From Eledone cirrhosa (taxonomy: Eukaryota), in contig OZ024747.1 in NCBI GenBank assembly GCA_964016885.1, positions 29,202,001 to 29,266,000 on the forward strand: 64,000 nucleotides of DNA. Reading direction: 5' to 3'. Positions 24,573-64,000 of the stretch are shown in pieces. The first letter of the stretch is position 1, and every line of letters begins with the position of its first letter. The notes beneath the pieces are model-generated. The model worked only from the letters and a program-made list of their open reading frames with translations, searched no databases and had not been told where the DNA came from. A program made the translations under genes and the position numbers.

Positions 24573-24574
24573 AT

Positions 24575-28842: not shown

Positions 28843-28929
28843 TGACAAATATCATTTCTTTCAAAAATAACGTGAGAAATTTAAATTATTTAGGAATTTC
28901 TCTTATTTCATACGATTAATTAAATTACT

Positions 28930-29160
28930 CCTCGGTTGACGCCCAAAACGAGCGCCTTCCCGCCCGGGCGGCGTAAAAGTCTGTGCCTTTTCGCCGAACG
29001 TCTCGCGCCGACGCCTCCTCCTCGCCTCTTTTTTTTTCTTTTCTTTAGTTTTCGTTCGCTCGCCGAACCTCGGCCTCGACGACTAGCCGCCTTTCGTGTT
29101 CCGAAAGCAAGAGCTCACGGTAAAAGCTACAGAGCCTTGGGATCCGTCTCCTGGTTCGAG
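28930..29160. other. Unique CpG-rich segment with a pyrimidine tract, abutting the satellite
   Basis: Abrupt AT-rich to GC/CpG-rich switch at ~28930; T-rich run at 29029-29052. Confidence 0.6.
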
Positions 29161-32100
29161 TGGCGCGTGTGTCTTACACGCCGCCGATCCATCGTCCGTC
29201 TTCCGAGTTAGTTTTACGTGCGGCTGTGCGTGTGACACTCCGTCGTCCATCTTCCAAGTTAGTTTTGCGTGTCTCTGTGTGTTACACACCGCCGCCGATC
29301 CGTCATCCGTCTTCCAAGTTAGTTTTACTTCTGGCTGTGCGTGTGACACTGTCGTCCGTCTTCCAAGTTAGTTTTACGTGCGGCTGTGCGTGTGACACTC
29401 CGTCGTCCATCTTCCAAGTTAGTTTTGCGTGTCTCTGTGTGTTGCACGCCGCCGCCGATCCGTCGTCCGTCTTCCAAGTTAGTTTTACGTGCGGCTGTGC
29501 GTGTGACACTCTGTCGTCCGTCTTCCAAGTTAGTTTTGCGTGTCTCTGTGTGTTACACGGCGCCGCCGATCCGTCGCCCGTCTTCCAAGTTAGTTTTCCG
29601 TGCGGCTGTGCGTGACATTCTGTCGTCCGTCTTCCAAGTTAGTTTTACGTGTAGACGGCGTGTGTGTGTCTCTGTGTGTGCTACACGCCGCCGATCCGCC
29701 GTCCGTCTTCCAAGTTAGTTTTACGTGTAAACGGCGTGTGTGTGTGTCTGTGTGTGTTACACGCCGCCGATCCGTCGTCCGTCTTCCAAGTTAGTTTTAC
29801 CTGTAGACGGCGTGTGTGTGTGTCTGTGTGTGTTACACGCCGCCGATCCGTCGTCCGTCTTCCAAGTTAGTTTTACTCCTGGCTGTGCGTGTGACACTCT
29901 GTCGTCCGTCTTCCAAGTTAGTTTTACGTGCGGCTGTGCATGTGACACTCTGTCGTCCGTCTTCAAAGTTAGTTTTACTTATGGTTGTGCGTGTGACGAC
30001 ACTCTATCGTCCGTATTCCAAGTTAGCTTTACGTGTAGACGGCGATGTGTGTTTCTGTGTGTGTTACACGCCGCCGATCCGTCGTCCGTCTTCCAAGTTA
30101 GTTTTACGTGTAGACGGCGTGTGTGTGTCTGTGTGTGTTACATGCCGCCGATCCGTCGTCCGTCTTCCAAGTTAGTTTTACTTCTGGCTGTGCGTGTGAC
30201 ACTCCGTCGTCCATCTTCCAAGTTAGTTTTGCGTGTCTCTGTGTGTTGCACGCCGCCGCCGATCCGTCGTCCGTCTTCCAAGTTAGTTTTACGTGCGGCT
30301 GTGCGTGTGACACTCTGTCGTCCGTCTTCCAAGTTAGTTTTGCGTGTCTCTGTGTGCTACACGGCGCCGCCGATCCGTCGCCCGTCTTCCAAGTTAGTTT
30401 TCCGTGCGGCTGTGCGTGACATTCTGTCGTCCGTCTTCCAAGTTAGTTTTACGTGTAGACGGCGTGTGTGTGTCTCTGTGTGTGCTACACGCCGCCGATC
30501 CGCCGTCCGTCTTCCAAGTTAGTTTTACGTGTAAACGGCGTGTGTGTGTGTCTGTGTGTGTTACACGCCGCCGATCCGTCGTCCGTCTTCCAAGTTAGTT
30601 TTACCTGTAGACGGCGTGTGTGTGTGTCTGTGTGTGTTACACGCCGCCGATCCGTCGTCCGTCTTCCAAGTTAGTTTTAATCATGGCTGTGCGTGTGACA
30701 CTCTGTCGTCCGTCTTCCAAGTTAGTTTTACGTGCGGCTGTGCATGTGACACTCTGTCGTCCGTCTTCAAAGTTAGTTTTACTTATGGTTGTGCGTGTGA
30801 CGACACTCTATCGTCCGTATTCCAAGTTAGCTTTACGTGTAGACGGCGATGTGTGTTTCTGTGTGTGTTACACGCCGCCGATCCGTCGTCCGTCTTCCAA
30901 GTTAGTTTTACGTGTAGACGGCGTGTGTGTGTCTGTGTGTGTTACATGCCGCCGATCCGTCGTCCGTCTTCCAAGTTAGTTTTACTTCTGGCTGTGCGTG
31001 TGACACTCCGTCGTCCATCTTCCAAGTTAGTTTTGCGTGTCTCTGTGTGTTGCACGCCGCCGCCGATCCGTCGTCCGTCTTCCAAGTTAGTTTTACGTGC
31101 GGCTGTGCGTGTGACACTCTGTCGTCCGTCTTCCAAGTTAGTTTTGCGTGTCTCTGTGTGCTACACGGCGCCGCCGATCCGTCGCCCGTCTTCCAAGTTA
31201 GTTTTCCGTGCGGCTGTGCGTGACATTCTGTCGTCCGTCTTCCAAGTTAGTTTTACGTGTAGACGGCGTGTGTGTGTCTCTGTGTGTGCTACACGCCGCC
31301 GATCCGCCGTCCGTCTTCCAAGTTAGTTTTACGTGTAAACGGCGTGTGTGTGTGTCTGTGTGTGTTACACGCCGCCGATCCGTCGTCCGTCTTCCAAGTT
31401 AGTTTTACCTGTAGACGGCGTGTGTGTGTGTCTGTGTGTGTTACACGCCGCCGATCCGTCGTCCGTCTTCCCAGTTAGTTTTACTCCTGGCTGTGCGTGT
31501 GACACTCTGTCGTCCGTCTTCCAAGTTAGTTTTAAGTGCGGCTGTGCATGTGACACTCTGTCGTCCGTCTTCAAAGTTAGTTTTACTTCTGGTTGTGCGT
31601 GTAACGATACTCTATCGTCCGTATTCCAAGTTAGCTTTACGTGTAGACGGCGATGTGTGTTTCTGTGTGTGTTACACGCCGCCGATCCGTCGTCCGTCTT
31701 CCAAGTTAGTTTTACGTGTAGACGGCGTGTGTGTGTGTCTGTGTGTGTCACACGCCGCTGATCCGTCGTCGAAGTTAGTTTTACGTCTGGCCGGGCGTGT
31801 GACGAGACTCTGTCGTCCGTCTTCCAAGTTACTTTTACGTGTAGACGGCGTGTGTGTGTGTGTCTGTGTGTGTGTTACACGCCGCCGATCCGTCATCCAT
31901 CTTCCAAGTTAGCTTTACGTGTAGACGGCGTGTGTGTCTGTCTGTGTGTGTTACACGCCGCCGATCCGTCGTCCGTCTTCAAAGTTAGTTTTACGTGTAG
32001 ACGGCCTGTGTGTGTGTCTGTGTGTGTTACACGCCGCCGATCCGTCGTCCTTCTTCCAAGTTAGTTTTACTTCTGGCTGTGCGTGTGACGACACCCTGTC

Positions 32101-35100
32101 CTCCGTCTTCTAAGTTAGTTTTACTTCTGGCTGTGCGTGTGACGACACTCTGTCGTCCGTCTTCCAAGTTAGTTTTACGTGTAGACGGCGTGTGTGTGTG
32201 TCTGTGTGTGTTACCCGCCGCCGATCCGTCGTCCGTCTTCCAAATTAGTTTCACGTGTAGACGGCGTGTGTGTGTATCTGTGTGTGTTACACGCCGCCGA
32301 TCCGTCGTCCGTCTTACAAGTTAGTTTTACGTGTACACGGCGCGTGTGTGTGTGTCTGTGTGTGTTACGCGCCGCCGATCCGTCGTCCGTCTTCCAAATT
32401 AGTTTTACCTGTAGACGGCGTGTGTGTCTGTGTGAGTTACACGCCGCCGATCCGTCGTCCGTCTTCCAAGTTAGTTTTACATGTAGACGGCGTGTGTGTG
32501 TGTCTGTGTGTGTTACACGCCGCCGATGCGAAATATTTACTGTGCGTGTGACACTCTGTCGTCCGTCTTCCAAGTTAGTTTTACGTGTAGACGGCGTGTG
32601 TGTGTGTCTGTGTGTGTTACACGCCGCCGATCCGTCATCCGTCTTCCAAGTTAGTTTTAAGTGTAGACGGCGTGTGTGACTGTGTGTGTTACACACCGCC
32701 GATCCTTCGTCCGTCATCCAAATTAGTTTTACGTGTAGACGGCGTGTGTGTGTGTCTGTGTGTGTTACATGCCGCCGATCCGTCGTCCGTCTTCCAAGTT
32801 AGTTTTACGTGTAGACGGCGTGTGTGTGTGTCTGTGTGTGTTACACGCCGCCGATCCGAAATATTTACTGTGCGTGTGACACTCTGTCGTCCGTCTTCCA
32901 AGTTAGTATTACGTGCGGCTGTGCGTGTGACACTCTGTCGTCCGTCTTCCAAGTTAGTTTTACTTCTGGCTGTGCGTGTGACGACACTCTGTCGTCCGTC
33001 TTCCAAGTTAGTTTTACGTGTAGACGGCGTGTGTGTGTGTCTGTGTGTGTTACCCGCCGCCGATCCGTCGTCCGTCTTCCAAATTAGTTTCACGTGTAGA
33101 CGGCGTGTGTGTGTATCTGTGTGTGTTACACGCCGCCGATCCGTCGTCCGTCTTCCAAGTTAGTTTTACGTGTACACGGCGCGTGTGTGTGTGTCTGTGT
33201 GTGTTACGCGCCGCCGATCCGTCGTCCGTCTTCCAAATTAGTTTTACGTGTAGACGGCATTTGTTTGTGTCTGTGTGAGTTACACACCGCCGATCCTTCG
33301 TCCGTCATCCAAATTAGTTTTACGTGTAGACGGCGTGTGTGTGTGTCTGCGTGTGTTACATGCCGCCGATCCGTCGTCCGTCTTCCAAGTTAGTTTTACG
33401 TGGAGACGGCGTGTGTGTGTCTGTGTGTGTTACACGCCGCCGATCCGTCGTCCGTCTTCCAAGTTAGTGTTACGTGGAGACGGCGTGTGTGTGTCTGTGT
33501 GTGTTACACGCCGCCGATCCGTCGTCCGTCTTCCAAGTTAGTTTTACGTGTAGACGGCGTGTCTATCTGTGTGTGTTACACACCGCCGATCCTTCGTCCG
33601 TCATCCAAATTAGTTTTACGTGTAGACGGCGTGTGTGTGTCTGTGTGTGTTACATGCCGCCGATCCGTCGTCCGTCTTCCAAGTTAGTTTTACTTCTGGC
33701 TGTGCGTGTGACACTCCGTCGTCCATCTTCCAAGTTAGTTTTGCGTGTCTCTGTGTGTTGCACGCCGCCGCCGATCCGTCGTCCGTCTTCCAAGTTAGTT
33801 TTACGTGCGGCTGTGCGTGTGACACTCTGTCGTCCGTCTTCCAAGTTAGTTTTGAGTGTCTATGTGTGTTACACGGCGCCGCGAATCCGTCGCCCGTCTT
33901 CCAAGTTAGTTTTCCGTGCGGCTGTGCGTGACATTCTGTCGTCCGTCTTCCAAGTTAATTTTACGTGTAGACGGTGTGTGTGTGTCTCTGTGTGTGCTAC
34001 ACGCCGCCGATCCGCCGTCCGTCTTCCAAGTTAGTTTTACGTGTAAACGGCGTGTGTGTGTGTCTGTGTGTGTTACACGCCGCCGATCCGTCGTCCGTCT
34101 TCCAAGTTAGTTTTACCTGTAGACGGCGTGTGTGTGTGTCTGTGTGTGTTACACGCCGCCGATCCGTCGTCCGTCTTCCAAGTCAGTTTTACTCCTGGCT
34201 GTGCGTGTGACACTCTGTCGTCCGTCTTCCAAGTTAGTTTTACGTGCGGCTGTGCATGTGACACTCTGTCGTCCGTCTTCAAAGTTAGTTTTACTTCTGG
34301 TTGTGCGTGTGACGACACTCTATCGTCCGTATTCCAAGTTAGCTTTACGTGTAGACGGCGATGTGTGTTTCTGTATGCGTTACACGCCGCCGATCCGTCG
34401 TCCGTCTTCCAAGTTAGTTTTACGTGTAGACGGCGTGTGTGTGTGTCTGTGTGTGTTACACGCCGCCGATCCGTCGTCGAAGTTAGTTTTACGTCTGGCC
34501 GGGCGTGTGACGAGACTCTGTCGTCCGTCTTCCAAGTTACTTTTACGTGTAGACGGCGTGTGTGTGTGTGTCTGTGTGTGTGTTACACGCCGCCGAACCG
34601 TCATCCGTCTTCCAAGTTAGCTTTACGTGTAGACGTCGTGTGTGTCTGTCTGTGTGTGTTACACGCCGCCGATCCGTCGTCCGTCTTCAAAGTTAGTTTT
34701 ACGTGTAGACGGCCTGTGTGTGTGTCTGTGTGTGTTACACGCCGCCGATCCGTCGTCCTTCTTCCAAGTTAGTTTTACTTCTGGCTGTGCGTGTGACGAC
34801 ACCCTGTCCTCCGTCTTCTAAGTTAGTTTTACTTCTGGCTGTGCGTGTGACGACACTCTGTCGTCCGTCTTCCAAGTTAGTTTTACGTGTAGACGGCGTG
34901 TGTGTGTGTCTGTGTGTGTTACCCGCCGCCGATCCGTCGTCCGTCTTCCAAATTAGTTTCACGTGTAGACGGCGTGTGTGTGTATCTGTGTGTGTTACAC
35001 GCCGCCGATCCGTCGTCCGTCTTCCAAGTTAGTGTTACGTGTACACGGCGCGTGTGTGTGTGTCTGTGTGTGTTACGCGCCGCCGATCCGTCGTCCGTCT

Positions 35101-44100: not shown

Positions 44101-47100
44101 CACGCCGCCGATCCGTCGTCCGTCTTCCAAGTTAGTGTTACGTGGAGACGGCGTGTGTGTGTCTGTGTGTGTTACACGCCGCCGATCCGTCGTCCGTCTT
44201 CCAAGTTAGTTTTACGTGTAGACGGCGTGTCTGTCTGTGTGTGTTACACACCGCCGATCCTTCGTCCGTCGTCCAAATTAGTTTTACGTGTAGACGGCGT
44301 GTGTGTGTCTGTGTGTGTTACATGCCGCCGATCCGTCGTCCGTCTTCCAAGTTAGTTTTACGTGTAGACGGCGTGTGTGTGTGTCTGTGTGTGTTACACG
44401 CCGCCGATCCGAAATATTTACTGTGCGTGTGACACTCTGTTGTCCGTCTTCCAAGTTAGTTTTACTTCTGGCTATGCGTGTGACGACACTCTGTCATCCG
44501 TCTTCCAAGTTAGTTTTACGTGTAGACGGCGTGTGTGTGTTTCTGTGTGTGTTACTCGCCGCCGATCCGTCGTCCGTCTTCCAAGTTAGTTTTACGTGTA
44601 CACGGCGCGTGTGTGTGTGTCTGTGTGTGTTACGCGCCGCCGATCCGTCGTCCGTCTTCCAAATTAGTTTTACGTGTAGACGGCATTTGTTTGTGTCTGT
44701 GTGAGTTACACGCCGCCGATCCGTCGTCCGTCTTCCAAGTTAGTTTTCCGTGTAGACGGCGTGTGTCTGTGTCTGTGTGAGTTACACGCCGCCGATCCGT
44801 CGCCTGTCTTCCACGTTAGGTTTACGTGTAGACGGCGTGTCTGTCTGTGTGTGTAACACGCCGCCGATCCGCCGTCCGTCTTCCAAGTTAGTTTTACGTG
44901 TAGAAGGCGTGTGTGTGTGTCTGTGTGTGTTACACGCCGCCGATCCGTCGTCCGTCTTCCAAGTTAGTTTTACGTGAACACGGCGCGTGTGTGTGTGTCT
45001 GTGTGTGTTACGCGCTGCCGATCCGTCGTCCGTCTTCCAAATTAGTTTTACGTGTAGACGGCATTTGTTTGTGTCTGTGTGAGTTACACGCCGCCGACAC
45101 GGCGTCCGTTTTCCAAGTTAGCTTTACGTGTAGACGGCGTGTGTGTGTGTCTGTGTGTGTTACACGCCGCCGATCCGTCGTCCGTCTTCCAAGTTAGTTT
45201 TAAGTGTAGACGGCGTCTGTGTCTGTGTGTGTTACACACCGCCGATCCTTCGTCCGTCATCCAAATGAGTTTTACGTGTAGACGGCGTGTGTGTGTGTCT
45301 GTGTGCGTTACAGGCCGCCGATCCGAAATATTTACTGTGCGTGTGACACTCTGTCGTCCGTCTTCCAAGTTAGTATTACGTGCGGCTGTGCGTGTGACAC
45401 TCTGTCGTCCGTCTTCCAAGTTAGTTTTACTTCTGGCTGTGCGTGTGACGACACTCTGTCATCCGTCTTCCAAGTTAGTTTTACGTGTAGACGGCGTGTG
45501 TGTCTGTGTGTGTTACACACCGCCGATCCTTCGTCCGTCATCCAAATTAATTTTACGTGTAGACGGCGTGTGTGTGTGTCTGTGTGTGTTACAAGCCGCC
45601 GATCCGTCGTCCGTCTTCCAAGTTAGTTTTACGTGTAGACGGCGTGTGTGTGTGTCTGTGTGTGCGACAGGCCGCCGATCCGAAATATTTACTGTGCGTG
45701 CGACACTCTGTCGTCCGTCTTCCAAGTTAGTATTACGTGCGGCTGTGCGTGTGACACTCTGTCGTCCGTCTTCCAAGTTAGTTTTACTTCTTGCTGTGCG
45801 TGTGACGACACTCTGTCGTCCGTCTTCCAAGTTAGTTTTACATGTAGACGGCGTGTGTGTGTGTCTGTGTGTGTTACCCGCCGCCGATCCGTCGTCCGTC
45901 TTCCAAGTTAGTTTTACGTGTACACGGCGCGTGTGTGTGTGTCTGTGTGTGTTACGCGCCGCCGATCCGTCGTCCGTCTTCCAAATTAGTTTTACGTGTA
46001 GACGGCATTTGTTTGTGTCTGTGTGAGCTACACACCGCCGATCCTTCGTCCGTCATCCAAATTAGTTTTACGTGTAGACGGCGTGTGTGTGTATCTGTGT
46101 GTGTTACATGCCGCCGATCCGTCGTCCGTCTTCCAAGTTAGTTTTACGTGTAGATGGCGTGTCTGTGTATCTGTGTGTGTTACACGCCGCCGATCCGTCG
46201 TCCGTCTTCCAAGTTAGTTTTACGTGTAGACGGCGTGTGTGTCTGTGTGAGTTACACGTCGTCGATCCGTCGTCCGTCTTCCAAGTTAGTTTTACATGTA
46301 GACGGCGTGTGTGTGTGTCTGTGTGTGTTACACGCCGCCGATCCGTCGCCCGTCTTCCAACTTAGTTTTACGTGTAGACGACGTGTGTGTGTGTCAGTGT
46401 GTGTTACCCGCCGCCTATCCGTCGTTCGTCTTCCAAGTTAGTTTCAATTGTAGACGGCGTGTGTGTGTGTCTGTGTGTGTTACACGCCGCCGATCCGTCG
46501 TCCGTCTTCCAAGTTAGTATTACGTGGAGACGGCGTGTGTGTCTGTGTGAGTTACACGCCGCCGATCCGTCGTCCGTCTTCCAAGTTAGTTTTACATGTA
46601 GACGGCGTGTGTGTGTGTCTGTGTGTGTTACAAGCCGCCGATCCGTCGCCCGTCTTCCAAGTTAGTTTTACGTGTAGACGGCGTGTGTGTGTGTCAGTGT
46701 GTGTTACACGCCGCCGATCCGAAATATTTACTGTGCGTGTGACACTCAGTCGTCCGTCTTCCAATTTAGTATTACGTGCGGCTGTGCGTGTGACACTCCG
46801 TCGTCCGTCTTCCAAGTTAGTTTTACTTCTGGCTGTGCTTGTGACGACACTCTGTCGTCCGTCTTCCAAGTTAGTTTTACGTGTAGACGGCGTGTGTGTG
46901 TATCTGTGTGTGTTACCCGCCGCCTATCCGTCGTCCGTTTTCCAAATTAGTTTTACGTGTAGACGGCGTGTGTGTGTATCTGTGTGTGTTACATGCCGCC
47001 TATCCGTCGTTCGTCTTCCAAGTTAGTTTCACGTGTAGACGGCATGTGTGTGTGTCTGTGTGTGTTACACGCCGCCGATCCGTCGTCCGTCTTCCAAGTT

Positions 47101-50100
47101 AGTGTTACGTGGAGACGGCGTGTGTGTGTGTCTGTGTGTGTTACACGCCGCCGATCCGTCGTCCCTCTTCCAAGTTAGTTTTACGTGTAGACGGCGTGTC
47201 TGTCTGTGTGTGTTACACACCGCCGATCCTTCGTCCGTCGTCCAAATTAGTTTTACGTGTAGACGGCGTGTGTGTGTCTGTGTGTGTTACATGCCGCCGA
47301 TCCGTCGTCCGTCTTCCAAGTTAGTTTTACGTGTAGACGGCGTGTGTGTGTGTCTGTGTGTGTTACACGCCGCCGATCCGAAATATTTACTGTGCGTGTG
47401 ACACTCTGTTGTCCGTCTTCCAAGTTAGTTTTACTTCTGGCTATGCGTGTGACGACACTCTGTCATCCGTCTTCCAAGTTAGTTTTACGTGTAGACGGCG
47501 TGTGTGTGTTTCTGTGTGTGTTACTCGCCGCCGATCCGTCGTCCGTCTTCCAAGTTAGTTTTACGTGTACACGGCGCGTGTGTGTGTGTCTGTGTGTGTT
47601 ACGCGCCGCCGATCCGTCGTCCGTCTTCCAAATTAGTTTTACGTGTAGACGGCATTTGTTTGTGTCTGTGTGAGTTACACGCCGCCGATCCGTCGTCCGT
47701 CTTCCAAGTTAGTTTTCCGTGTAGACGGCGTGTGTCTGTGTCTGTGTGAGTTACACGCCGCCGATCCGTCGCCTGTCTTCCACGTTAGGTTTACGTGTAG
47801 ACGGCGTGTCTGTCTGTGTGTGTAACACGCCGCCGATCCGCCGTCCGTCTTCCAAGTTAGTTTTACGTGTAGAAGGCGTGTGTGTGTGTCTGTGTGTGTT
47901 ACACGCCGCCGATCCGTCGTCCGTCTTCCAAGTTAGTTTTACGTGAACACGGCGCGTGTGTGTGTGTCTGTGTGTGTTACGCGCTGCCGATCCGTCGTCC
48001 GTCTTCCAAATTAGTTTTACGTGTAGACGGCATTTGTTTGTGTCTGTGTGAGTTACACGCCGCCGATACGGCGTCCGTTTTCCAAGTTAGCTTTACGTGT
48101 AGACGGCGTGTGTGTGTGTCTGTGTGTGTTACACGCCGCCGATCCGTCGTCCGTCTTCCAAGTTAGTTTTAAGTGTAGACGGCGTCTGTGTCTGTGTGTG
48201 TTACACACCGCCGATCCTTCGTCCGTCATCCAAATGAGTTTTACGTGTAGACGGCGTGTGTGTGTGTCTGTGTGCGTTACAGGCCGCCGATCCGAAATAT
48301 TTACTGTGCGTGTGACACTCTGTCGTCCGTCTTCCAAGTTAGTATTACGTGCGGCTGTGCGTGTGACACTCTGTCGTCCGTCTTCCAAGTTAGTTTTACT
48401 TCTGGCTGTGCGTGTGACGACACTCTGTCATCCGTCTTCCAAGTTAGTTTTACGTGTAGACGGCGTGTGTGTCTGTGTGTGTTACACACCGCCGATCCTT
48501 CGTCCGTCATCCAAATTAATTTTACGTGTAGACGGCGTGTGTGTGTGTCTGTGTGTGTTACAAGCCGCCGATCCGTCGTCCGTCTTCCAAGTTAGTTTTA
48601 CGTGTAGACGGCGTGTGTGTGTGTCTGTGTGTGCGACAGGCCGCCGATCCGAAATATTTACTGTGCGTGCGACACTCTGTCGTCCGTCTTCCAAGTTAGT
48701 ATTACGTGCGGCTGTGCGTGTGACACTCTGTCGTCCGTCTTCCAAGTTAGTTTTACTTCTTGCTGTGCGTGTGACGACACTCTGTCGTCCGTCTTCCAAG
48801 TTAGTTTTACATGTAGACGGCGTGTGTGTGTGTCTGTGTGTGTTACCCGCCGCCGATCCGTCGTCCGTCTTCCAAGTTAGTTTTACGTGTACACGGCGCG
48901 TGTGTGTGTGTCTGTGTGTGTTACGCGCCGCCGATCCGTCGTCCGTCTTCCAAATTAGTTTTACGTGTAGACGGCATTTGTTTGTGTCTGTGTGAGCTAC
49001 ACACCGCCGATCCTTCGTCCGTCATCCAAATTAGCTTTACGTGTAGACGGCGTGTGTGTGTATCTGTGTGTGTTACATGCCGCCGATCCGTCGTCCGTCT
49101 TCCAAGTTAGTTTTACGTGTAGATGGCGTGTCTGTGTATCTGTGTGTGTTACACGCCGCCGATCCGTCGTCCGTCTTCCAAGTTAGTTTTACGTGTAGAC
49201 GGCGTGTGTGTCTGTGTGAGTTACACGTCGTCGATCCGTCGTCCGTCTTCCAAGTTAGTTTTACATGTAGACGGCGTGTGTGTGTGTCTGTGTGTGTTAC
49301 ACGCCGCCGATCCGTCGCCCGTCTTCCAACTTAGTTTTACGTGTAGACGACGTGTGTGTGTGTCAGTGTGTGTTACCCGCCGCCTATCCGTCGTTCGTCT
49401 TCCAAGTTAGTTTCAATTGTAGACGGCGTGTGTGTGTGTCTGTGTGTGTTACACGCCGCCGATCCGTCGTCCGTCTTCCAAGTTAGTATTACGTGGAGAC
49501 GGCGTGTGTGTCTGTGTGAGTTACACGCCGCCGATCCGTCGTCCGTCTTCCAAGTTAGTTTTACATGTAGACGGCGTGTGTGTGTGTCTGTGTGTGTTAC
49601 AAGCCGCCGATCCGTCGCCCGTCTTCCAAGTTAGTTTTACGTGTAGACGGCGTGTGTGTGTGTCAGTGTGTGTTACACGCCGCCGATCCGAAATATTTAC
49701 TGTGCGTGTGACACTCAGTCGTCCGTCTTCCAATTTAGTATTACGTGCGGCTGTGCGTGTGACACTCCGTCGTCCGTCTTCCAAGTTAGTTTTACTTCTG
49801 GCTGTGCTTGTGACGACACTCTGTCGTCCGTCTTCCAAGTTAGTTTTACGTGTAGACGGCGTGTGTGTGTATCTGTGTGTGTTACCCGCCGCCTATCCGT
49901 CGTCCGTTTTCCAAATTAGTTTTACGTGTAGACGGCGTGTGTGTGTATCTGTGTGTGTTACATGCCGCCTATCCGTCGTTCGTCTTCCAAGTTAGTTTCA
50001 CGTGTAGACGGCGTGTGTGTGTGTCTGTGTGTGTTACACGCCGCCGATCCGTCGTCCGTCTTCCAAGTTAGTGTTACGTGGAGACGGCGTGTGTGTGTGT

Positions 50101-53100
50101 CTGTGTGTGTTACACGCCGCCGATCCGTCGTCCCTCTTCCAAGTTAGTTTTACGTGTAGACGGCGTGTGTGTGTGTCTGTGTGTGTTACACGCCGCCGAT
50201 CCGTCGTCCGTCTTCCAAGTTAGTTTTACGTGTAGACGGCGTGTGTGAGTGTCTGTGTGTGTTACACGCCGCCGATCCGTCGTCCGTCTTCCAAGTTAGT
50301 ATTACGTGCGGCTATGCGTGTAACACTCTGTCGTCCGTCTTCCAAGTTAGTTTTACTTCTGGCTGTGCGTGTGACGACACTCTGTCGTCCGTCTTCCAAG
50401 TTAGTTTTACGTTTACACGGCGCGTGTGTGTGTGTCTGTATGTGTTACGCGCCGCTGATCCGTCGTCCGTCTTCCAAATTAGTTTTACGTGTAGACGGCA
50501 TTTGTTTGTGTCTCTGTGAGTTACACGCCGCCGATCCGTCGTCCGTCTTCCAAGTTAGTTTTCCGTGTAGACGGCGTGTGTCTGTGTCTGTGTGAGTTAC
50601 ACGACGCCGATCCGTCGTCCGTCTTCCACGTTAGGTTTACGTGTAGACGGCGTGTCTGTCTGTGTGTGTAACACGCCGCCGATCCGCCGTCCGTCTTCCA
50701 AGTTAGTTTTACGTGTAGACGGCGTGTGTGTGTGTCTGTGTGTGTTACACGCCGCCGATCCGTCGTCCGTCTTCCAAGTTAGTTTTACGTGTACACGGCG
50801 CGTGTGTGTGTGTCTGTGTGTGTTACGCGCCGCCGATCCGTCGTCCGTCTTCCAAATTAGTTTTACGTGTAGACGGCATTTGTTTGTGTCTGTGTGAGTT
50901 ACACTCCGCCGATACGGCGTCCGTCTTCCAAGTTAGCTTTACGTGTAGACGGCGTGTGTGTGTGTCTGTGTGTGTTACACGCCACCGATCCCTCGTCCGT
51001 CTTCCAAGTTAGTTTTACGTGTAGACGGCGTGTGTGTCTGTGTGTGTTACACACCGCCGATCCTTCGTCCGTCATCCAAATTAGTTTTACGTGTAGACGG
51101 CGTGTGTGTGTCTGTGTGTGTTACATGTCGCCAATCCGTTGTCCGTCTTCCAAGTTAGTTTTACGTGTAGACGGCGTGTGTGTGTGTCTGTGTGTGTTAC
51201 ACGCCGCCGATCCGAAATATTTACTGTGCGTGTGACACTCTGTCGTCCGTCTTCCAAGTTAGTATTACGTGCGGCTGTGCGTGTGACACTCTGTCGTCCG
51301 TCTTCCAAGTTAGTTTTACTTCTGGCTGTGCGTGTGACGACACTCTGTCGTCCGTCTTCCAAGTTAGTTTTACGTGTAGACGGCGTGTGTGTGTGTCTGT
51401 GTGTGTTACCCGCTGCCGATCCGTCGTCCGTCTTCCAAATTAGTTTCACGTGTAGACGGCGTGTGTGTGTATCTGTGTGTGCTACACGCCGCCGATCCGT
51501 CGTCCTTCTTCCAAGTTAGTTTTACGTGTACACGGCGCGTGTGTGTGTGTCTGTGTGTGTTACGCGCCGCCGATCCGTCGACCGTCTTCCAAATAAGTTT
51601 TACGTGTAGACGGCATTTGTTTTTGTCTGTGTGAGTTACACACCGCCAATCCTTCGTTCGTCATCCAAATTAGTTTTACGTGTAGACGGCGTGTGTGTGT
51701 ATCTGTGTGTGTTACACGCCACCGATCGGTCGTCCGTCTTCCAAGTTAGTTTTACGTGTAGACGGCGTGTGTGTCTGTGTGAGTTACACGCCGCCGATCC
51801 GTCGTCCGTCTTCCAAGTTAGTTTTACGTGTAGACGGCGTGTGTGTGTGCCTGTGTGTGTTACACGCCGCCGATCCGTCGCCCGTCTTCCAAGTTAGTTT
51901 TACGTGTAGACGGCGTGTGTGTGTGTCTGTGTGTGTTACACGCCGCCGATCCGAAATATTTACTCTGCGTGTGACACTCTGTCGTCCGTCTTCCAAGTTA
52001 GTATTACGTGCGGCTGTGCGTGTAACACTCTGTCGTCCGTCTTCCAAGTTAGTTTTACTTCTGGCTGTGCGTGTGACGACACTCTGTCGTCCGTCTTCCA
52101 AGTCAGTTTTACGTGTAGACGGCGTGTGTGTGTGTCTGTGTGTGTTACCTGCCGCCTATCCGTCGTCCGTCTTCCAAATTAGTTTTACGTGTAGACGGCG
52201 TGTGTGTGTATCTGTGTGTGTTACACGCCGCCTATCCGTCGTTCGTCTTCCAAGTTAGTTTCACGTGTAGACGGCGTGTGTGTGTGTCTGTGTGTGTTAC
52301 ACGCCGCCGATCCGTCGTCCGTCTTCCAAGTTAGTCTTACGTGGAGACGGCGTGTGTGTGTGTCTGTGTGTGTTACACGCCGCCGATCCGTCGTCCGTCT
52401 TCCAAGTTAGTATTACGTGCGGCTGTGCGTGTGACACTCTGTCGTCCGTTTTCCAAGTTAGTTTTACTTCTGGCTGTGCGTGTGACGACACTCTGTCGTC
52501 CATCTTCCAAGTTAGTTTTCCGTGTAGACGGCGTGTGTCTTAGTCTGTGTGAGTTACACGCCGCCGATCCGTCGCCTGTCTTCCACGTTAGGTTTACGTG
52601 TAGACGGCGTGTGTGTGTATCTGTGTGTGTTACACGCCGCCGATCCGTCGTCCGTCTTCCAAGTTAGTTTTACGTGTAGACGGCGTGTGTGTGTGTCTGT
52701 GTGTGTTACACGCCGCCGATGCGAAATATTTACTGTGCGTGTGACACTCTGTCGTCCGTCTTCCAAGTTAGTATTACGTGCGGTTGTGCGTGTGACACTC
52801 TGTCGTCCGTCTTCCAAGTTAGTTTTACTTCTGGCTGTGCGTGTGACGACACTCTGTCGTCCGTCTTCCAAGTTAGTTTTACGTGTAGACGGCGTGTGTG
52901 TGTGTCTGTGTGTGTTACACGCCGCCGATCCGTCCTCCGTCTTCCAAGTTAGTTTTAAGTGTAGACGGCGTGTGTGTGTGTCTGTGTGTGTTACACGCCG
53001 CCGATGCGAAATATTTACTGTGCGTGTGACACTCTGTCGTCCGTCTTCCAAGTTAGTATTACGTGCGGTTGTGCGTGTGACACTCTGTTGTCCGTCTTCC

Positions 53101-59100: not shown

Positions 59101-62100
59101 TGTGCGTGTGACGACACTCTGTCGTCCGTCTTCCAAGTTAGTTTTACGTGTAGACGGCGTGTGTGTGTGTCTGTGTGTGTTACACGCCGCCGATCCGTCG
59201 TCCGTCTTCCAAGTTAGATTTACGTGTACACGGCGCGTGTGTGTGTGTCTGTGTGTGTTAAGCGCCTCCGATCCGTCGTCCGTCTTCGAAATTAGTCTTA
59301 CGTGTAGACGGCATTTGTTTGTGTCTGTGTGAGTTACACGCCGCCGATCCGTCGTCCGTCTTCCAAGTTAGTTTTACGTGTAGACGGCGTGTGTGTGTGT
59401 CTGTGTGTGTTACACGCCGCCGATCCGAAATATTTACTGTGCGTGTGACACTCTGTCGTCCGTCTTCCAAGTTAGTATTACGTGCGGCTGTGCGTGTGAC
59501 GACACTCTGTCGTCCGTCTTCCAAGTTAGTTTTACGTGTAGACGGCGTGTGTGTGTGTCTGTGTGTGTTACCCGCCGCCGATCCGTCGTCCGTCTTCCAA
59601 ATTAATTTCACGTGTAGACGGCGTGTGTGTGTATCTGTGTGTGTTACACGCCGCCGATCCGTCGTCCGTCTTCCAAGTTAGTTTTACGTGTACACGGCGC
59701 GTGTGTGTGTGTCTGTGTGTGTTACGCGCCGCCGATCCGTCGTCCGTCTTCCAAATTAGTTTTACGTGTAGACGGCATTTGTTTGTGTCTGTGTGAGTTA
59801 CACACCGCCGATCCTTCGTCCGTCATCCAAATTAGTTTTACGTGTAGAAGGCGTGTGTGTGTGTCTGTGTGTGTTACATGCCGCCGATCCGTCGTCCGTC
59901 TTCCAAGTTAGTTTTACGTGTAGACGGCGTGTGTGTGTATCTGTGTGTGTTACACGCCGCCGATCCGTCGTCCGTCTTCCAAGTTAGTTTTACGTGTAGA
60001 CGGCGTGTGTGTCTGTGTGAGTTACACGCCGCCGATCCGTCGTCCGTCTTCCAAGTTAGTTTTACATGTAGACGGCGTGTGTGTGCGTCTGTGTGTGTGT
60101 GTGTCTGTGTGTGTTACACGCCGCCGATCCGTCGCCCGTCTTCCAAGTTAGTTTTACGTGTAGACGGCGTGTGTGTGTGTCTGTGTGTGTTACACGCCGC
60201 CGATCCGAAATATTTACTGTGCGTGTGTCACTCTGTCGTCCGACTTCCAAGTTAGTATTACGTGCGGCTGTGCGTGTGACACTCTGTCGTCCGTCTTCCA
60301 AGTAAGTTTTACTTGTGGCTGTGCGTGTGACGACACTCTGTCGTCCGTCTTCCAAGTTAGTTTTACGTGTAGACGGCGTGTGTGTGTGTCTGTGTGTGTT
60401 ACCTGCCGCCTATCCGCCGTCCGTCTTCCAAATTAGTTTTACGTGTAGACGGCGTGTGTGTGTATCTGTGTGTGTTACACGCCGCCTATCCGTCGTTCGT
60501 CTTCCAAGTTAGTTTCACGTGTAGACGGCGTGTGTGTGTGTCTGTGTGTGTTACACGCCGCCGATCCGTCGTCCGTCTTCCAAGTTAGTGTTACGTGGAG
60601 ACGGCGTGTGTGTGTCTGTGTGTGTTACACGCCGCCGATCCGTCGTCCGTCTTCCAAGTTAGTTTTACGTGTAGACGGCGTGTCTGTCTGTGTGTGTTAC
60701 ACACCGCCGATCCGTCGTCCGTCTTCCAAGTTAGTTTTACTTGTGGCTGTGCGTGTGACGACACTCTGTTGTCCGTCTTCCAAGTTAGTTTTACGTGTAG
60801 ACGGCGTGTGTGTGTCTCTGTGTGTGCTACACGCCGCCGATCCGCCGTCCGTCTTCCAAGTTAGTTTTACGTGTAAACGGCGTGTGTGTGTGTCTGTGTG
60901 TGTTACACGCCGCCGATCCGTCGTCCGTCTTCCAAGTTAGTTTTACCTGTAGACGGCGTGTGTGTGTGTCTGTGTGAGTTACACGCCGCCGATCCGTCGT
61001 CCGTCTTCCAAGTCAGTTTTACTCCTGGCTGTGCGTGTGACACGCTGTCGTCCGTCTTCCAAGTTAGTTTTACGTGCGGCTGTGCATGTCGTCCGTCTTC
61101 AAAGTTAGTTTTACTTCTGGTTGTGCGTGTTACGACACTCTATCGTCCGTATTCCAAGTTAGCTTTACGTGTAGACGGCGATGTGTGTTTCTGTGTGCGT
61201 TACACGCCGCCGATCCGTCGTCCGTCTTCCAAGTTAGTTTTACGTGTAGACGGCGTGTGTTTGTGTCTGTGTGTGTTACACGCCGCCGATCCGTCGTCGA
61301 AGTTAGTTTTACGTCTGGCCGGGCGTGTGACGAGACTCTGTCGTCCATCTTCCAAGTTACTTTTACGTGTAGACGGCGTGTGTGTGTGTGTCTGTGTGTG
61401 TGTTACACGCCGCCGAACCGTCATCCGTCTTCCAAGTTAGCTTTACGTGTAGACGGCGTGTGTGTCTGTCTGTGTGTGTTACACGCCGCCGATCCGTCGT
61501 CCGTCTTCAAAGTTAGTTTTACGTGTAGACGGCCTGTGTGTGTGTCTGTGTGTGTTACACGCCGCCGATCCGTCGTCCTTCTTCCAAGTTAGTTTTACTT
61601 CTGGCTGTGCGTGTGACGACACCCTGTCCTCCGTCTTCTAAGTTAGTTTTACTTCTGGCTGTGCGTGTGACGACACTCTGTCGTCCGTCTTCCAAGTTAG
61701 TTTTACGTGTAGACGGCGTGTGTGTGTGTATGTGTGTGTTACCCGCCGCCGATCCGTCGTCCGTCTTCCAAATTAGTTTCACGTGTAGACGGCGTGTGTG
61801 TGTATCTGTGTGTGTTACACGCCGCCGATCCGTCGTCCGTCTTCCAAGTTAGTGTTACGTGTACACGGCGCGTGTGTGTGTGTCTGTGTGTGTTACGCGC
61901 CGCCGATCCGTCGTCCGTCTTCCAAATTAGTTTTACGTGTAGACGGCATTTGTTTGTGTCTGTGTGAGTTACACACCGCCGATCCTTCGTCCGTCATCCA
62001 AATTAGTTTTACGTGTAGACGGCGTGTGTGTGTGTCTGTGTGTGTTACATGCCGCCGATCCGTCGTCCGTCTTCCAAGTTAGTTTTACGTGTAGACGGCG

Positions 62101-64000
62101 TGTGTGTGTATCTGTGTGTGTTACACGCCGCCGATCCGTCGTCCGTCTTCCAAGTTAGTTTTACGTGTAGACGGCGTGTGTGTCTGTGTGAGTTACACGC
62201 CGCCGATCCGTCGTCCGTCTTCCAAGTTAGTTTTACATGTAGACGGCGTGTGTGTGTGTCTGTGTGTGTTACACGCCGCCGATCCGTCGCCCGTCTTCCA
62301 AGTTAGTTTTACGTGTAGACTGCGTGTGTGTGTGTCTGTGTGTGTTACACGCCGCCGATCCGTCGCCCGTCTTCCAAGTTAGTTTTACGTGTAGACTGCG
62401 TGTGTGTGTGTCTGTGTGTGTTACACGCCGCCGATCCGAAATATTCTCTGTGCGTGTGACACTCTGTCGTCCGTCTTCCAAGTTAGTATTACGTGCGGTT
62501 GTGCGTGTGACACTCTGTCGTCCGTCTTCCAAGTTAGTTTTACTTCTGGTTGTGCGTGTGACGACACTCTGTCGTCCGTCTTCCAAGTTAGTTTTACGTG
62601 TAGACGGCGTGTGTGTGTGTCTGTGTGTGTTACCCGCCGCCTATCCGTCGTTCGTCTTCCAAGTTAGTTTCACGTGTAGACGGCGTGTGTGTGTGTCTGT
62701 GTGTGTTACACGACGCCGATCCGTCGTCCGTCTTCCAAGTTAGTGTTACGTGGAGACGGCGTGTGTGTGTGTCTGTGTGTGTTACACGCGGCCGATCCGT
62801 CGTCCGTCTTCCAAGTTAGTTTTACGTGTAGACGGCGTGTGTGTGTGTCTGTGTGTGTTACACGCCGCTGATCCGTCGTCCGTCTTCCAAGTTAGTTTTA
62901 CGTGTAGACGGCGTATGCGAGTGTCTGTGTGTGTTACACGCCGCCGATCCGTCGTCCGTCTTCGAAGTTAGTATTACGTGCGGCTGTGCGTGTGACACTC
63001 TGTCGTCCGTCTTCCAAGTTAGTTTTACTTCTGGCTGTGCGTGTGACGACACTCTGTCTTCCGTCTTCCAAGTTAGTTTTCCGTGTAGACGGCGTGTGTC
63101 TGTGTCTGTGTGAGTTACACGCCGCCGATCCGTCGCCCGTCTTCCACGTTAGATTTACGTGTAGACGGCGTGTGTGTGTTTCTGTGTGTGTTACACGCCG
63201 CCGATCCGTCGTCCGTCTTCCAAGTTAGTTTTACTTCTGGCTGTGCGTGTGACGACACTCTGTCATCCGTCTTCCAAGTTAGTTTTCCGTGTAGACGGCG
63301 TGTGTCTGTGTCTGTGTGAGTTACACGCCGCCGATCCGTCGCCCGTCTTCCACGTTAGATTTACGTGTAGACGGCGTGTGTGTGTATCTGTGTGTGTTAC
63401 ACGCCGCCGATCCGTCGTCCGTCTTCCAAGTTAGTTTTACGTGTAGACGGCGTGTGTGTGTGTCTGTGTGTGTTACACGCCGCCGATCCGTCGTCCGTCT
63501 TCCAAGTTAGTTTTACGTGTACACGGCGCGTGTGTGTGTGTCTGAGTGTGTTACGCGCCGCCGATCCGCCGTCCGTCTTCCAAATTAGTTTTACGTGTAG
63601 ACGGCATTTGTTTGTGTCTGTAAGAGTTACACGCCGCCCATCCGTCGTCCGACTTCCAAGTTAGTTTTCCGTGTAGACGGCGTGTGTCTGTGTCTGTGTG
63701 AGTTACAAGCCGCCGATCCGTCGTCCGTCTTCCACGTTAGGTTTACGTGTAGACGGCGTGTCTGTCTGTGTGTGTAACACGCCGCCGATCCGCCGTCCGT
63801 CTTCCAAGTCAGTTTTACGTGTAGACGGTGTGTGTGTGTGTCTGTGTGTGTTACACGCCGCAGATCCGTCGTCCGTCTTCCAAGTTAGATTTACGTGTAC
63901 ACGGCACGTGTGTGTGTGTCTGTGTGTGTTACCCGCCGCCGATCCGTCGTCCGTCTTCCAAATTAGTTTTACGTGTAGACGGCATTTGTTGGTGTCTGTG
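29161..64000. repeat. Composite CpG-rich satellite (>34.8 kb, roughly 500 monomers by estimate; continues past the window)
   Basis: Core GTCGTCCGTCTTCCAAGTTAGTTTTAC alternates with spacers to give monomers of ~72-78 bp (GTGTAGACGGC(GT)nCT(GT)nTACACGCCGCCGATCC), 48/51 bp and ~63 bp. All monomers share one orientation. Confidence 0.97.

What the first reader, a model, noticed from the sequence alone, without database searches (positions are those of the whole stretch)
29161..64000. Modular satellite: constant core with ACTAAC plus hairpin spacers, a candidate architectural RNA or protein-binding array
Seen: hundreds of copies of a ~28-bp core are retained across several spacer types. In long monomers the core is bracketed by CCGTCT/AGACGG. 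The minus strand then reads CCGTCT-ACACGTAAAACTAACTTGGA-AGACGG, placing ACUAAC in a loop. Spacers form their own stems: CGGCGTGT/ACACGCCG around a (GT)n loop, and GACGACA-CTC-TGTCGTC. CpGs are abundant. Known: ACUAAY is the STAR-family (QKI/SF1) site, (UG)n binds TDP-43/CELF, (CA)n binds hnRNP L, and repeat-rich RNAs such as Xist, Rsx, roX and SatIII scaffold proteins. Inference: this is a multivalent RNA scaffold, a centromeric array or a spacer array. There is no expression evidence here.
Basis: partly seen in the sequence, partly recalled or inferred. Interest (0 to 1): 0.72.

Follow-up and report, generated by a model that had tools for sequence, protein, structure and literature searches.

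The report
Runaway ribosomal-spacer repeat array
This stretch is a tandem array of a short repeat that normally sits in small blocks just behind the large ribosomal RNA gene, here multiplied to about 690 copies beside a broken ribosomal gene copy; the big array is probably inert, and its conserved core likely marks a protein-binding site of the ribosomal spacer rather than an RNA scaffold.

Summary
There are 491 same-strand copies of the core in the window and 692 over 48.9 kb in the genome, with 76-, 51-, 54-, 60- and 104-bp monomers. The stated inverted repeats and CpG richness are also present.

The array is an rDNA intergenic-spacer (IGS) subrepeat. The same monomers form blocks of 2-17 copies about 0.48 kb downstream of the 28S 3' end in rDNA units on many chromosomes. 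On C7 the array is bracketed by two copies of the repeat that normally lies upstream of 18S. It is followed by an 18S/5.8S unit with a gutted, insertion-bearing 28S.

The array grew by recent block duplications that are 98.9-99.9% identical.

- **Within the 76-bp class:** core and spacer positions vary equally (4.6% against 4.5%).
- **Between 21 arrays:** the core (93-97% identity) and the 3' block (90%) are conserved. The linker that holds the AGACGG stem arm is not (66%).

The ACUAAC-loop hairpin shows no covariation, is absent from short monomers and would lie antisense to the rDNA. The RNA-scaffold and centromere readings are not supported.

This is a new member of a known kind, the IGS-derived satellites. 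Earlier notes of this scan describe other rDNA-derived repeats in this genome, but not this satellite.

The parts
28922..29103 (+). Copy of the repeat that in rDNA units lies 0.7-1.5 kb upstream of 18S (2-3 tandem copies, spaced about 260-360 bp apart, in the four units compared). Here it is joined directly to the pre-satellite spacer. The rDNA-like DNA begins abruptly at 28922.
   Evidence: 80-93% identity to copies upstream of 18S in the C1, C2, C3, C4, C7 and C14 units. Contigs of runs X1-X3 bridge the junction at 29074-29181/29190 with 0 differences.
29102..29189 (+). Canonical 'pre-satellite' spacer segment. In rDNA units it directly precedes the first monomer, about 0.4 kb after the 28S 3' end.
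   Evidence: 87-90% identity to the segments just before the monomer blocks in C14 (five places). One search shows the same upstream text and the same first monomers (50/51, 60, 51 bp) in L045-L047.
29190..64000 (+). Tandem array of IGS subrepeat monomers, all in one orientation. There are 491 cores in the window. The array continues 14.1 kb beyond the window to C7:29280148.
   Evidence: Classes over the whole array (691 intervals): long 69-81 bp 457, 49-52 bp 91, 53-55 bp 84, 104 bp 37, 58-61 bp 15, 92 bp 4, other 3.
32781..32856 (+). Representative 76-bp long monomer, identical to the majority sequence of the 311 copies of 76 bp. It has block A (core, positions 1-32), a variable linker with the AGACGG arm, a (GT)n run, and block B (TCTGTGTGTGTTACACGCCGCCGATC).
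32885..32989 (+). Representative 51-bp and 54-bp short monomers, the recurrent 's-t' pair that follows each 104-bp unit.
   Evidence: Their folds are no better than shuffles.
29401..29460 (+). Representative 60-bp monomer. It is an edge-type variant also found at the 5' edge of the short C14 blocks.
29450..31753 (+). 804-bp higher-order unit (pattern smsmsLLLsstLL) repeated about three times. The interval is 29450-30949 plus its copy 804 bp further on.
   Evidence: 98.9% ungapped identity at offset 804 over 29450-30949.
44200..50168 (+). 3.0-kb block duplicated at offset 2969 with 99.9% identity, one example of the recent multi-kb duplications that built the array.
   Evidence: Other offsets: 17447 (99.2% over 4.5 kb) and 20396 (99.85% over 2 kb). 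86% of the array lies in exact 120-mers that occur more than once.

Best explanation
The array is a ribosomal-DNA intergenic-spacer subrepeat amplified to 692 head-to-tail copies (48.9 kb) next to a decayed rDNA unit. It most likely grew by repeated unequal exchange or segmental duplication, and probably has no function of its own.

**Shown**
- The same monomers form blocks of 2-17 copies about 0.48 kb downstream of the 28S 3' end in rDNA units on many chromosomes.
- The array starts with the canonical 5' edge of such a block, including the order of its first short monomers.
- The array is bracketed by two copies of the 18S-upstream repeat. It is followed by 5'ETS-18S-5.8S and a 28S that has large deletions and a 10.6-kb insert.
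- Large blocks inside the array are 98.9-99.9% identical.

**Inferred**
- The 'constant core with several spacer types' reflects one ancestral monomer made of two conserved blocks. Block A is the core and block B is the 3' part.
- The length classes would come from ancestral edge variants of the block, slippage of the (GT)n run, and deletions. Block duplication then copied them many times.
- In its native short blocks, the monomer is predicted to be a repeated protein-binding element of the spacer. The most likely role is a Pol I terminator or replication-fork barrier, with block A as the recognition site (my odds about 0.35). The basis is its position just behind 28S, its fixed orientation, and the conservation of block A across diverged rDNA lineages.
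For: **Identification as rDNA**
- Rfam finds SSU, 5.8S and LSU in the 12-kb dispersed unit.
- Rfam finds SSU and 5.8S directly after the array on C7, and LSU 3' parts before the short blocks in L023 and L024.
- Monomer blocks follow 28S in L023, L024, L029, L033, L034 and L036.
- In L024 the LSU match ends at 4413 and the first monomer starts at about 4895.

**Edges of the array**
- Window 29102-29200 matches the pre-satellite segment of the C14 blocks.
- Window 28922-29103 matches the 18S-upstream repeat.
- The array ends 71 bp before another copy of that repeat, which ends 726 bp before 18S.

**The neighbouring unit is broken**
- Against the C1 unit, only 28S pieces 8791-9084, 10777-11308, 11322-11913 and 12319-12808 (C1m coordinates) are present.
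- A 10.6-kb gap separates the pieces ending at 11308 and starting at 11322.
- The 5.8S match is partial: model positions 40-151, 54 bits against 103 in C1.

**Recent growth**
- 86% of the array lies in repeated exact 120-mers, and block duplicates are 98.9-99.9% identical.

**Variation within the 76-bp class (311 copies)**
- Mean minor-letter fraction is 4.6% in the core and 4.5% elsewhere.

**Conservation between 21 arrays on 9 chromosomes**
- Mean pairwise identity is 92.7% for block A (97.3% without three rows that carry a rearranged core), 66% for the linker and 90.5% for block B.
- The flanking spacer between 28S and the first monomer is 87.5% identical in aligned columns (69% counting gaps) between the C14 and C1 lineages.

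**Independent reads**
- Contigs of X1-X3 bridge the left junction. They give monomer words a depth several hundred times that of the unique flank, roughly in line with the assembled copy number. These may come from the same sample as the assembly.
Against: - No expression, binding or termination data exist here, so 'probably inert' and 'terminator or fork barrier' are both inferences.
- Block A conservation could come from gene conversion among rDNA loci rather than selection. The alignment has only 21 related rows and about 32 core columns.
- Three arrays (88-91-bp family) carry a rearranged 5' half of the core, so the core is not inviolable.
- The CGGCGTGT/ACACGCCG stem shows one compensatory pair between arrays, and 3 of 500 shuffles reach the score. 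A second compensated variant occurs inside the array (30 copies of the intact pair, plus 6 with one further change). This hints that the dyad is maintained by something, but most variants are uncompensated.
- The layout on C7 (upstream-repeat copy, array, upstream repeat, 18S) also resembles a spacer-promoter/enhancer layout, so a regulatory or transcribed role is not excluded.
- I did not identify the main, active rDNA array of this genome. 'Canonical' therefore rests on dispersed units that are 73-95% alike.
Confidence: 0.75

Rival explanations
1. Pol I regulatory array. The left copy of the 18S-upstream repeat would act as a spacer promoter. The array would then act like enhancer repeats or be transcribed in sense towards the 18S unit, as in the Xenopus spacer promoter plus 60/81-bp repeats.
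For: - The order on C7 is upstream-repeat copy, array, upstream repeat, 5'ETS, 18S, all on the + strand.
- Length variants share one core, which is analogous to the 60/81-bp elements. That paper title was seen only in the reference list of PMC12326227.
- Passages of that review state that spacer promoters and short enhancer repeats occur in Xenopus, Drosophila and mammals.
Against: - In the rDNA units examined, the block sits next to 28S, not next to the promoter region.
- No core copy lies in the 18S-upstream region of the C1, C2, C3 or C4 units.
- The 18S unit behind the array has a gutted, interrupted 28S and a partial 5.8S, so there is little left to regulate.
- No promoter has been mapped.
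Confidence: 0.1
2. Architectural RNA. A - strand transcript would display hundreds of ACUAAC loops and (CA)n or (UG)n tracts that bind STAR-family and other RNA-binding proteins.
For: - 351 ACTAAC on the - strand of the array.
- The long monomer's - strand folds somewhat better than shuffles: z -2.63, with 4 of 200 shuffles as good.
- The ACUAAC region is mostly unpaired in that fold.
Against: - The stem that should close the ACUAAC loop has 0 compensatory pairs and is paired no more often than shuffles.
- Its 3' arm is the least conserved part of the monomer.
- It is absent from the 51/54/60-bp monomers, whose folds are no better than shuffles.
- In the fold it is reduced to 3 bp.
- The strand is antisense to the adjacent rRNA genes.
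- There is no Rfam match at gathering score.
- The origin as an IGS subrepeat explains the repeat without any RNA role.
Confidence: 0.04
3. Centromeric or other chromosome-architecture satellite.
For: - A long homogeneous array with higher-order structure.
- It lies in a repeat-rich neighbourhood with a 41-bp satellite, microsatellites and retroelements in 1-28900.
Against: - Only one large array was found.
- All other matches are short blocks, mostly attached to rDNA units, on C1-C4, C6, C10, C12-C14 and others. That search gives lower bounds only.
- 49 kb is small for a 94-Mb chromosome.
Confidence: 0.03
4. The array's length is inflated or collapsed by the assembler, and the true locus differs greatly.
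For: Near-identical multi-kb duplicates are what mis-assembly of a tandem array can also produce.
Against: - Word depth of monomer sequence in X1-X3 is several hundred times the depth of the unique flank, the same order as the 692 assembled copies plus dispersed ones.
- The left junction is bridged at single-copy depth.
- Depth from contigs is only a rough guide, and the runs may be the assembly's own sample.
Confidence: 0.05

Closest known systems
IGS-derived satellite DNAs: tomato rDNA-derived satellite (PMC2679016, abstract and outline read) and As51 of characiform fishes (PMC13170303, abstract and outline read)
   Same: - A subrepeat of the rDNA intergenic spacer is amplified into a long array.
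- Neighbouring spacer and rRNA coding sequence are lost.
- Growth is by segmental duplication.
- rDNA units interrupted by retroelements sit at the transition.
   Different: - The animal here is called cephalopod-like only in earlier AI notes, which I did not test.
- The array is a single 49-kb locus still attached to a broken 18S/5.8S unit, so it may be an early stage.
- Several length classes are kept, not one homogenised subrepeat.
Repeated Pol I terminators that double as replication-fork barriers downstream of 28S (mouse 18-bp repeated motif bound by TTF-I; seen only as reference titles and review passages in PMC12326227)
   Same: - A short motif repeated in one orientation in the spacer shortly after the 28S 3' end.
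- The motif is conserved while the sequence around it drifts.
   Different: - No sequence likeness to those motifs was tested.
- No factor, termination or fork arrest is shown.
- Monomers are 51-104 bp with a (GT)n run and a dyad, not bare 18-bp boxes.
Xenopus 60/81-bp spacer enhancer repeats with spacer promoters (review passages and reference titles in PMC12326227; abstract of PMC2120851 in the listing)
   Same: - Length variants of one monomer share a common core.
- On C7 the array lies between a duplicated upstream-region repeat and the gene.
   Different: - No copy of the core occurs in the 18S-upstream region. That the Xenopus core is shared with the gene promoter is recalled knowledge, not taken from a call.
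- The native position is next to 28S.
   Same: Many copies of a short motif that could bind a protein, if transcribed.
   Different: - No transcription evidence.
- The proposed presenting stem fails the covariation test.
- The motif is antisense to the rDNA.

Membership tests
rDNA IGS subrepeat / IGS-derived satellite | Monomers homologous to subrepeats lying in the spacer of rDNA units | tested here: met
   Blocks of the same monomer follow the LSU 3' end in the C1, C2, C3, C4, C7 and C14 units (Rfam; monomer listing; alignment A1).
rDNA IGS subrepeat / IGS-derived satellite | Array edges match the spacer context | tested here: met
   The left edge equals the canonical pre-satellite segment plus the s-m-s monomer order. 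The right edge lies 71 bp before the 18S-upstream repeat, 5'ETS and 18S.
rDNA IGS subrepeat / IGS-derived satellite | Amplified far beyond the copy number seen in ordinary units | tested here: met
   692 cores against 2-17 in 27 other blocks.
rDNA IGS subrepeat / IGS-derived satellite | Independent of a working rRNA gene (satellite status) | tested here: inconclusive
   The adjacent unit has a deleted and interrupted 28S and a partial 5.8S. Activity of the locus cannot be judged from sequence.
Pol I terminator / replication-fork-barrier repeats | Lies shortly downstream of the 28S 3' end, in one orientation relative to transcription | tested here: met
   About 0.48 kb after the LSU end in L024. 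It is on the same strand as the rRNA genes in every unit examined.
Pol I terminator / replication-fork-barrier repeats | Short motif conserved while the surrounding spacer diverges | tested here: met
   Block A is 92.7-97.3% identical, against 66% for the linker. The flanking spacer is 87.5% identical, or 69% counting gaps.
Pol I terminator / replication-fork-barrier repeats | Bound by a TTF-I/Reb1-type factor; stops Pol I or replication forks | not testable with these tools
   Needs EMSA or ChIP, run-on assays and 2D gels.
Xenopus-type spacer enhancer repeats | Core shared with the gene promoter region | tested here: not met
   No AAGTTA(T)GTTT core in the 18S-upstream part of the C1, C2, C3 or C4 units. 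No hits of the 21-nt core in L031, L032, L035 or L037.
Xenopus-type spacer enhancer repeats | Located between a spacer promoter and the gene promoter | tested here: inconclusive
   This holds for the C7 layout only. In ordinary units the block is next to 28S. No promoter has been mapped.
Architectural / scaffold lncRNA repeats | Conserved RNA structure presenting the motif (covariation) | tested here: not met
   Stem CCGTCT/AGACGG has 0 compensatory pairs and is 71% paired, and 247 of 500 shuffles match or exceed that paired percentage. The other stem has 1 compensatory pair and is only suggestive.
Architectural / scaffold lncRNA repeats | Stable transcription of the array | not testable with these tools
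   No run on record as RNA was listed. That is no evidence either way.
Centromeric satellite | Large arrays at one site per chromosome, on most chromosomes | tested here: not met
   One large array on C7. Elsewhere there are only short blocks. The search gives lower bounds.
Centromeric satellite | CENP-A occupancy | not testable with these tools
   Needs ChIP or CUT&Tag.

The most novel reading that the evidence does not exclude
Block A (the 32-nt core) is the recognition site of the still unknown Pol I termination or fork-barrier factor of this animal lineage. The 692-copy C7 array would then be a giant decoy that soaks up that factor or tethers the locus to the nucleolus. Its copy number would tune rDNA transcription or replication.
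Probability: 0.12. Interest if true: 0.55.

Novelty: new member of a known kind. Interest (0 to 1): 0.25.

Why it matters
The finding turns an apparently exotic 'modular satellite' into a datable example of a satellite being born from a ribosomal spacer. The short parental blocks, the intact 5' edge, the deleted gene body and the broken neighbouring gene are all still visible.

It also points to a conserved 32-nt block just behind 28S as a candidate cis element of rRNA transcription or replication. My one library search on cephalopod rDNA spacers found no paper on the topic among the 15 of 24 listed.

It does not open a new kind of biology.

Tried and rejected
- **Transposon-borne repeat.** The satellite and the left-flank repeat co-occur about 10-11 kb apart at many loci, which first suggested a 12-kb mobile element. 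There were no long ORFs, and Rfam showed the unit to be 18S-5.8S-28S. Rejected.
- **Core derived from a 28S fragment.** The 28S contains CCGTCGT...GGTTAGTTTTAC. However, the best local alignment of the monomer to the 18S-28S span scores 25-26, against 24.2 +/- 2.4 for 300 dinucleotide shuffles, and 77 of 300 score as high. Not significant.
- **Rfam.** There were 0 matches at gathering score in the window.
- **Coding potential.** Stop-to-stop frames in the array are at most 322 aa, and the 76-bp period shifts the frame. Not coding.
- **RNA evidence.** No RNA holder was listed. Three runs of unknown kind from one sample hold 28-43% of the words. This says nothing on expression.
- **Read laying.** A shorter part was laid. 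It consists of contigs of short DNA-like records, so it gives no strand or level.
- **Self-BLAST of the array.** This timed out. It was replaced by exact 120-mer offsets and ungapped identity scans.
- **Earlier findings by sequence.** Look-ups for the monomer and for the left flank found nothing. The look-up by place near the window also found nothing.
- **Main rDNA array.** I did not identify the main, presumably active, rDNA array. A search with the 28S 3' end plus spacer returned dispersed units 73-91% alike.


Full report
**1. The observation**

The window holds 491 copies of the 21-nt core CGTCTTCCAAGTTAGTTTTAC. I allowed up to 5 substitutions, but none of the hits had more than 3. All are on the + strand, from 29197 to 63952, and none are on the - strand.

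Core-to-core spacings fall into classes:
- 76 bp: 211 (316 for 69-80 bp together)
- 51 bp: 55
- 54 bp: 64
- 60 bp: 12
- 104 bp: 30
- 92 bp: 4

Tandem Repeats Finder reports the same periods.

- CCGTCT-N20-AGACGG: 226 times
- CGGCGTGT...ACACGCCG: 157 times
- GACGACACTCTGTCGTC: 34 times
- GTTAGT (ACTAAC on the - strand): 351 times

CpG observed/expected is 1.53, against 0.58-0.72 in the left part of the window. The 104-bp class is a long monomer fused to a short one that has lost its core.

**2. Extent**

The window is G000:C7:29202001-29266000 in a genome of about 3.0 Gb. The array continues for 139 + 61 more cores in the next two stretches. Over window + L021 + L022 there are 692 cores, ending at C7:29280127, which makes 48.9 kb.

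The 691 intervals divide as follows:
- 457 long (69-81 bp)
- 91 of 49-52 bp
- 84 of 53-55 bp
- 37 of 104 bp
- 15 of 58-61 bp
- 4 of 92 bp
- 3 other

**3. What it is**

The monomer also occurs in short blocks on C1, C2, C3, C4, C6, C10, C12, C13, C14 and others. The 180 bp just left of the array (28922-29103) is itself a dispersed repeat, and at many loci it lies 10-11 kb upstream of such a block.

Four such loci share about 12 kb at 88-97% identity over the long shared blocks with no long ORFs. Rfam identifies that unit as 18S, 5.8S and 28S.

The monomer blocks therefore sit in the intergenic spacer just after 28S. In L024 the LSU match ends at 4413 and the first monomer starts near 4895. The left-flank repeat sits 0.7-1.5 kb upstream of 18S.

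Each ordinary block has the same edges:
- a conserved pre-satellite text ending in ...CACGCCGCCGATC
- a last monomer truncated after ...ACGTGTAGACGGCGG
- a conserved post-satellite text

**4. The C7 locus**

From left to right the locus reads as follows:
1. Non-rDNA sequence up to 28921.
2. A copy of the 18S-upstream repeat (28922-29103).
3. The canonical pre-satellite segment (29102-29189), joined directly to that repeat.
4. First monomers of 51, 60 and 51 bp, as in the C14 blocks.
5. The rest of the 48.9-kb array.
6. 71 bp, followed by another copy of the upstream repeat (L022 4219-4362).
7. 726 bp, followed by 18S (L022 5088-7804) and a partial 5.8S.

Against the C1 unit, the following 28S keeps only four pieces. 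A 10.6-kb insert separates the pieces that end at C1m position 11308 and start at 11322 (C1m is the C1 unit read with the rRNA genes on the + strand). A normal spacer with 9 monomers then follows, along with the 700-800-bp spacer repeats.

The same 28S position is also broken by a 1.36-kb insert in the C3 unit. That fits an earlier AI note about an R2-site element, but I did not analyse it.

Read against an ordinary unit, the left junction is a deletion of the whole transcribed region. The right junction is a deletion of the distal spacer.

Contigs of three coded runs bridge the left junction without differences, at the depth of the unique flank. They give monomer words a depth several hundred times higher. 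These runs may be the assembly's own sample.

**5. How it grew**

The monomer-class string shows recurring patterns such as XstLLL... and smsmsLLLsstLL. Here L is a long monomer, s is 49-52 bp, t is 53-55 bp, m is 58-61 bp and X is 104 bp.

86% of the array lies in exact 120-mers that occur more than once, with preferred offsets of 2969, 17447, about 20400 and 804 bp. Ungapped identity at those offsets is as follows:

| Offset (bp) | Identity | Span |
|---|---|---|
| 2969 | 99.9% | 3.0 kb |
| 17447 | 99.2% | 4.5 kb |
| 20396 | 99.85% | 2.0 kb |
| 804 | 98.9% | 1.5 kb |

A gapped comparison of the two halves gives 96-98% over 1.3-4.6 kb, with rearrangements. This is the signature of recent multi-kb duplication. 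It shows that hundreds of intact cores need no long-term selection.

**6. Core against spacer**

Within the 311 copies of exactly 76 bp, the mean minor-letter fraction is 4.6% in the 25 core positions and 4.5% in the other 51. Spacer CpG positions are the most variable, at 6.6%.

Between arrays the picture differs. I aligned one real monomer from each of 21 arrays.
- In one search I had 23 loci.
- I dropped L034 and L050 as degenerate and mis-phased, and L056 because it belongs to the same family as L055/L057 and was out of phase.
- L047 was left out earlier as a near-copy of L046.
- For L024, L026 and L036 I used well-phased monomers.

Mean pairwise identity between arrays:

| Region | Identity |
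|---|---|
| Block A, columns 1-34 | 92.7% (97.3% without three rows of the 88-91-bp family, whose core 5' half is rearranged) |
| Linker, columns 35-60, holding the AGACGG arm | 66% |
| (GT)n run | 96% |
| Block B | 90.5% |

For scale, I compared the C14 and C1 lineages:
- last 260 nt of 28S: 95% identical
- spacer between 28S and the first monomer: 87.5% in aligned columns, 69% counting gaps

The monomer is therefore one conserved unit with two kept blocks and a hypervariable linker. It is not a core with free spacers. The short classes keep block A but have a different or shortened 3' part. They are found only in the C7/C13/C14 lineage, where they also mark the 5' edge of ordinary blocks.

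**7. The hairpins**

*Stem 1 (CCGTCT/AGACGG).*
- Among 20 distinct rows, 71.1% of cells pair, against 70.7% in shuffles (247 of 500 as high).
- There are 0 pairs with a change on both sides.
- Inside the array, 308 of the 489 long-type monomers parsed (out of 498) have perfect arms. Every variant listed is an uncompensated single change.

*Stem 2 (CGGCGTGT/ACACGCCG).*
- 86.3% of cells pair.
- One pair changes on both sides (G-C in 5 rows, U-A in 8, unpaired in 5).
- 3 of 500 shuffles reach the score. The tool warns that related sequences can give such numbers without any structure.
- Inside the array, one compensated variant (CGGCGCGTG/TACGCGCCG) has 30 copies. The other common variants are uncompensated (30, 24, 20, 13, 10, 10 copies and so on).

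*RNA folds.*
- Long monomer: z -1.35 on the + strand and z -2.63 on the - strand. On the - strand, stem 2 takes the shared CGG and stem 1 shrinks to 3 bp.
- 51+54-bp pair: z -0.35 and +0.58.
- 60-bp monomer: z +0.58 and +1.18.

The dyad around the (GT)n run is real and perhaps maintained, at the DNA or the RNA level. The ACUAAC-presenting stem is not.

**8. Mechanism**

*Shown:* the origin, context, orientation and mode of growth.

*Inferred:* the large array is most likely a by-product of unequal exchange in a dead rDNA remnant.

In its native blocks the monomer has three features:
- It sits close behind 28S.
- It always has the same polarity as the rRNA genes.
- It has a block conserved across rDNA lineages whose flanking spacer has drifted.

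These are features of repeated Pol I terminators, which in mammals double as replication-fork barriers. I saw this only as review passages and reference titles in PMC12326227. I give that reading about 0.35.

A Xenopus-like enhancer role is less likely. The core has no copy in the 18S-upstream region, and the native position is next to 28S. The C7 layout does mimic a spacer promoter followed by repeats, and sense transcription from 28922-29103 into the array cannot be excluded.

**9. What is known**

Satellites born from IGS subrepeats are well documented. Examples are tomato (PMC2679016, abstract and outline) and As51 in characiform fishes (PMC13170303, abstract and outline). Others appeared in the listing.

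The tomato account parallels this locus in three ways:
- amplification of one subrepeat by segmental duplication
- loss of neighbouring spacer and coding sequence
- retroelement-interrupted units at the transition

A search for cephalopod + rDNA + intergenic spacer returned 24 papers. None of the 15 listed was on the topic. The taxon label itself comes only from earlier AI notes.

Those notes also describe other rDNA-derived repeats in this genome.

**10. Verdict**

This is a new member of a known kind, with a testable by-product: a conserved 32-nt block behind 28S. Interest 0.25.

Noticed in passing
window 1-8079: There are two tandem copies of a non-LTR retrotransposon. One has an open 1152-aa frame (4621-8079, +) with endonuclease, reverse-transcriptase and zf-RVT domains, preceded by a 496-aa frame with no Pfam match. 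The other copy is cut by the window start. The long open frames suggest a young element.
   Followed up: partly
window 8492-17176 (- strand): Two copies about 5 kb apart of a second reverse-transcriptase-bearing element. Its frames are split into several pieces (RVT_1 in 9971-11230).
   Followed up: partly
window 21407-22348 (-): A 313-aa frame with a GIY-YIG domain, possibly the endonuclease part of a Penelope-like element. It is embedded in microsatellites.
   Followed up: no
window 20600-24850: Repeat arrays occur in mirrored orientation. (TG)n at 20635-21071 faces (CA)n at 22709-23382. An 18-bp repeat at 22226-22346 faces its reverse complement at 24638-24839. GC skew flips from +0.40 to -0.39 around 22 kb. 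This may be a large inverted duplication.
   Followed up: no
window 25680-27552: A separate 41-bp AT-rich satellite has 46 copies at 93% matches. It is flanked by a TGATGATGG array (24949-25361) and (ATG)n-like arrays (27752-28365).
   Followed up: no
L022+L042+L023 (C7:29285767-29296370): A 10.6-kb insert interrupts the 28S of the rDNA unit behind the array, at the same 28S position where the C3 unit carries a 1.36-kb insert. An earlier AI note places an R2-type element at such a site. The content of the 10.6 kb was not examined.
   Followed up: no
C28:124.72-125.09 Mb (L038-L041): A 76-nt piece of the 18S-upstream repeat recurs every 29-77 kb (mostly 36-42 kb), each time with 4-5 subrepeats spaced about 170 bp apart. 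One such unit holds a histone 3' stem-loop (Rfam, L039 6844-6888). This looks like a large tandem unit that has captured a piece of rDNA spacer.
   Followed up: no
C14:23819001-23859000 (L044-L047): There are short monomer blocks, each with its pre- and post-satellite spacer, 3.9-8.8 kb apart. Rfam finds no rRNA gene between them. These are spacer-only repeats, a possible intermediate between ordinary rDNA and the C7 array.
   Followed up: partly
L031 2561-5412; L022 5088-7804: The 18S matches span 2.7-2.85 kb against a model of 1831 positions, so this genome's 18S carries large expansion segments.
   Followed up: no
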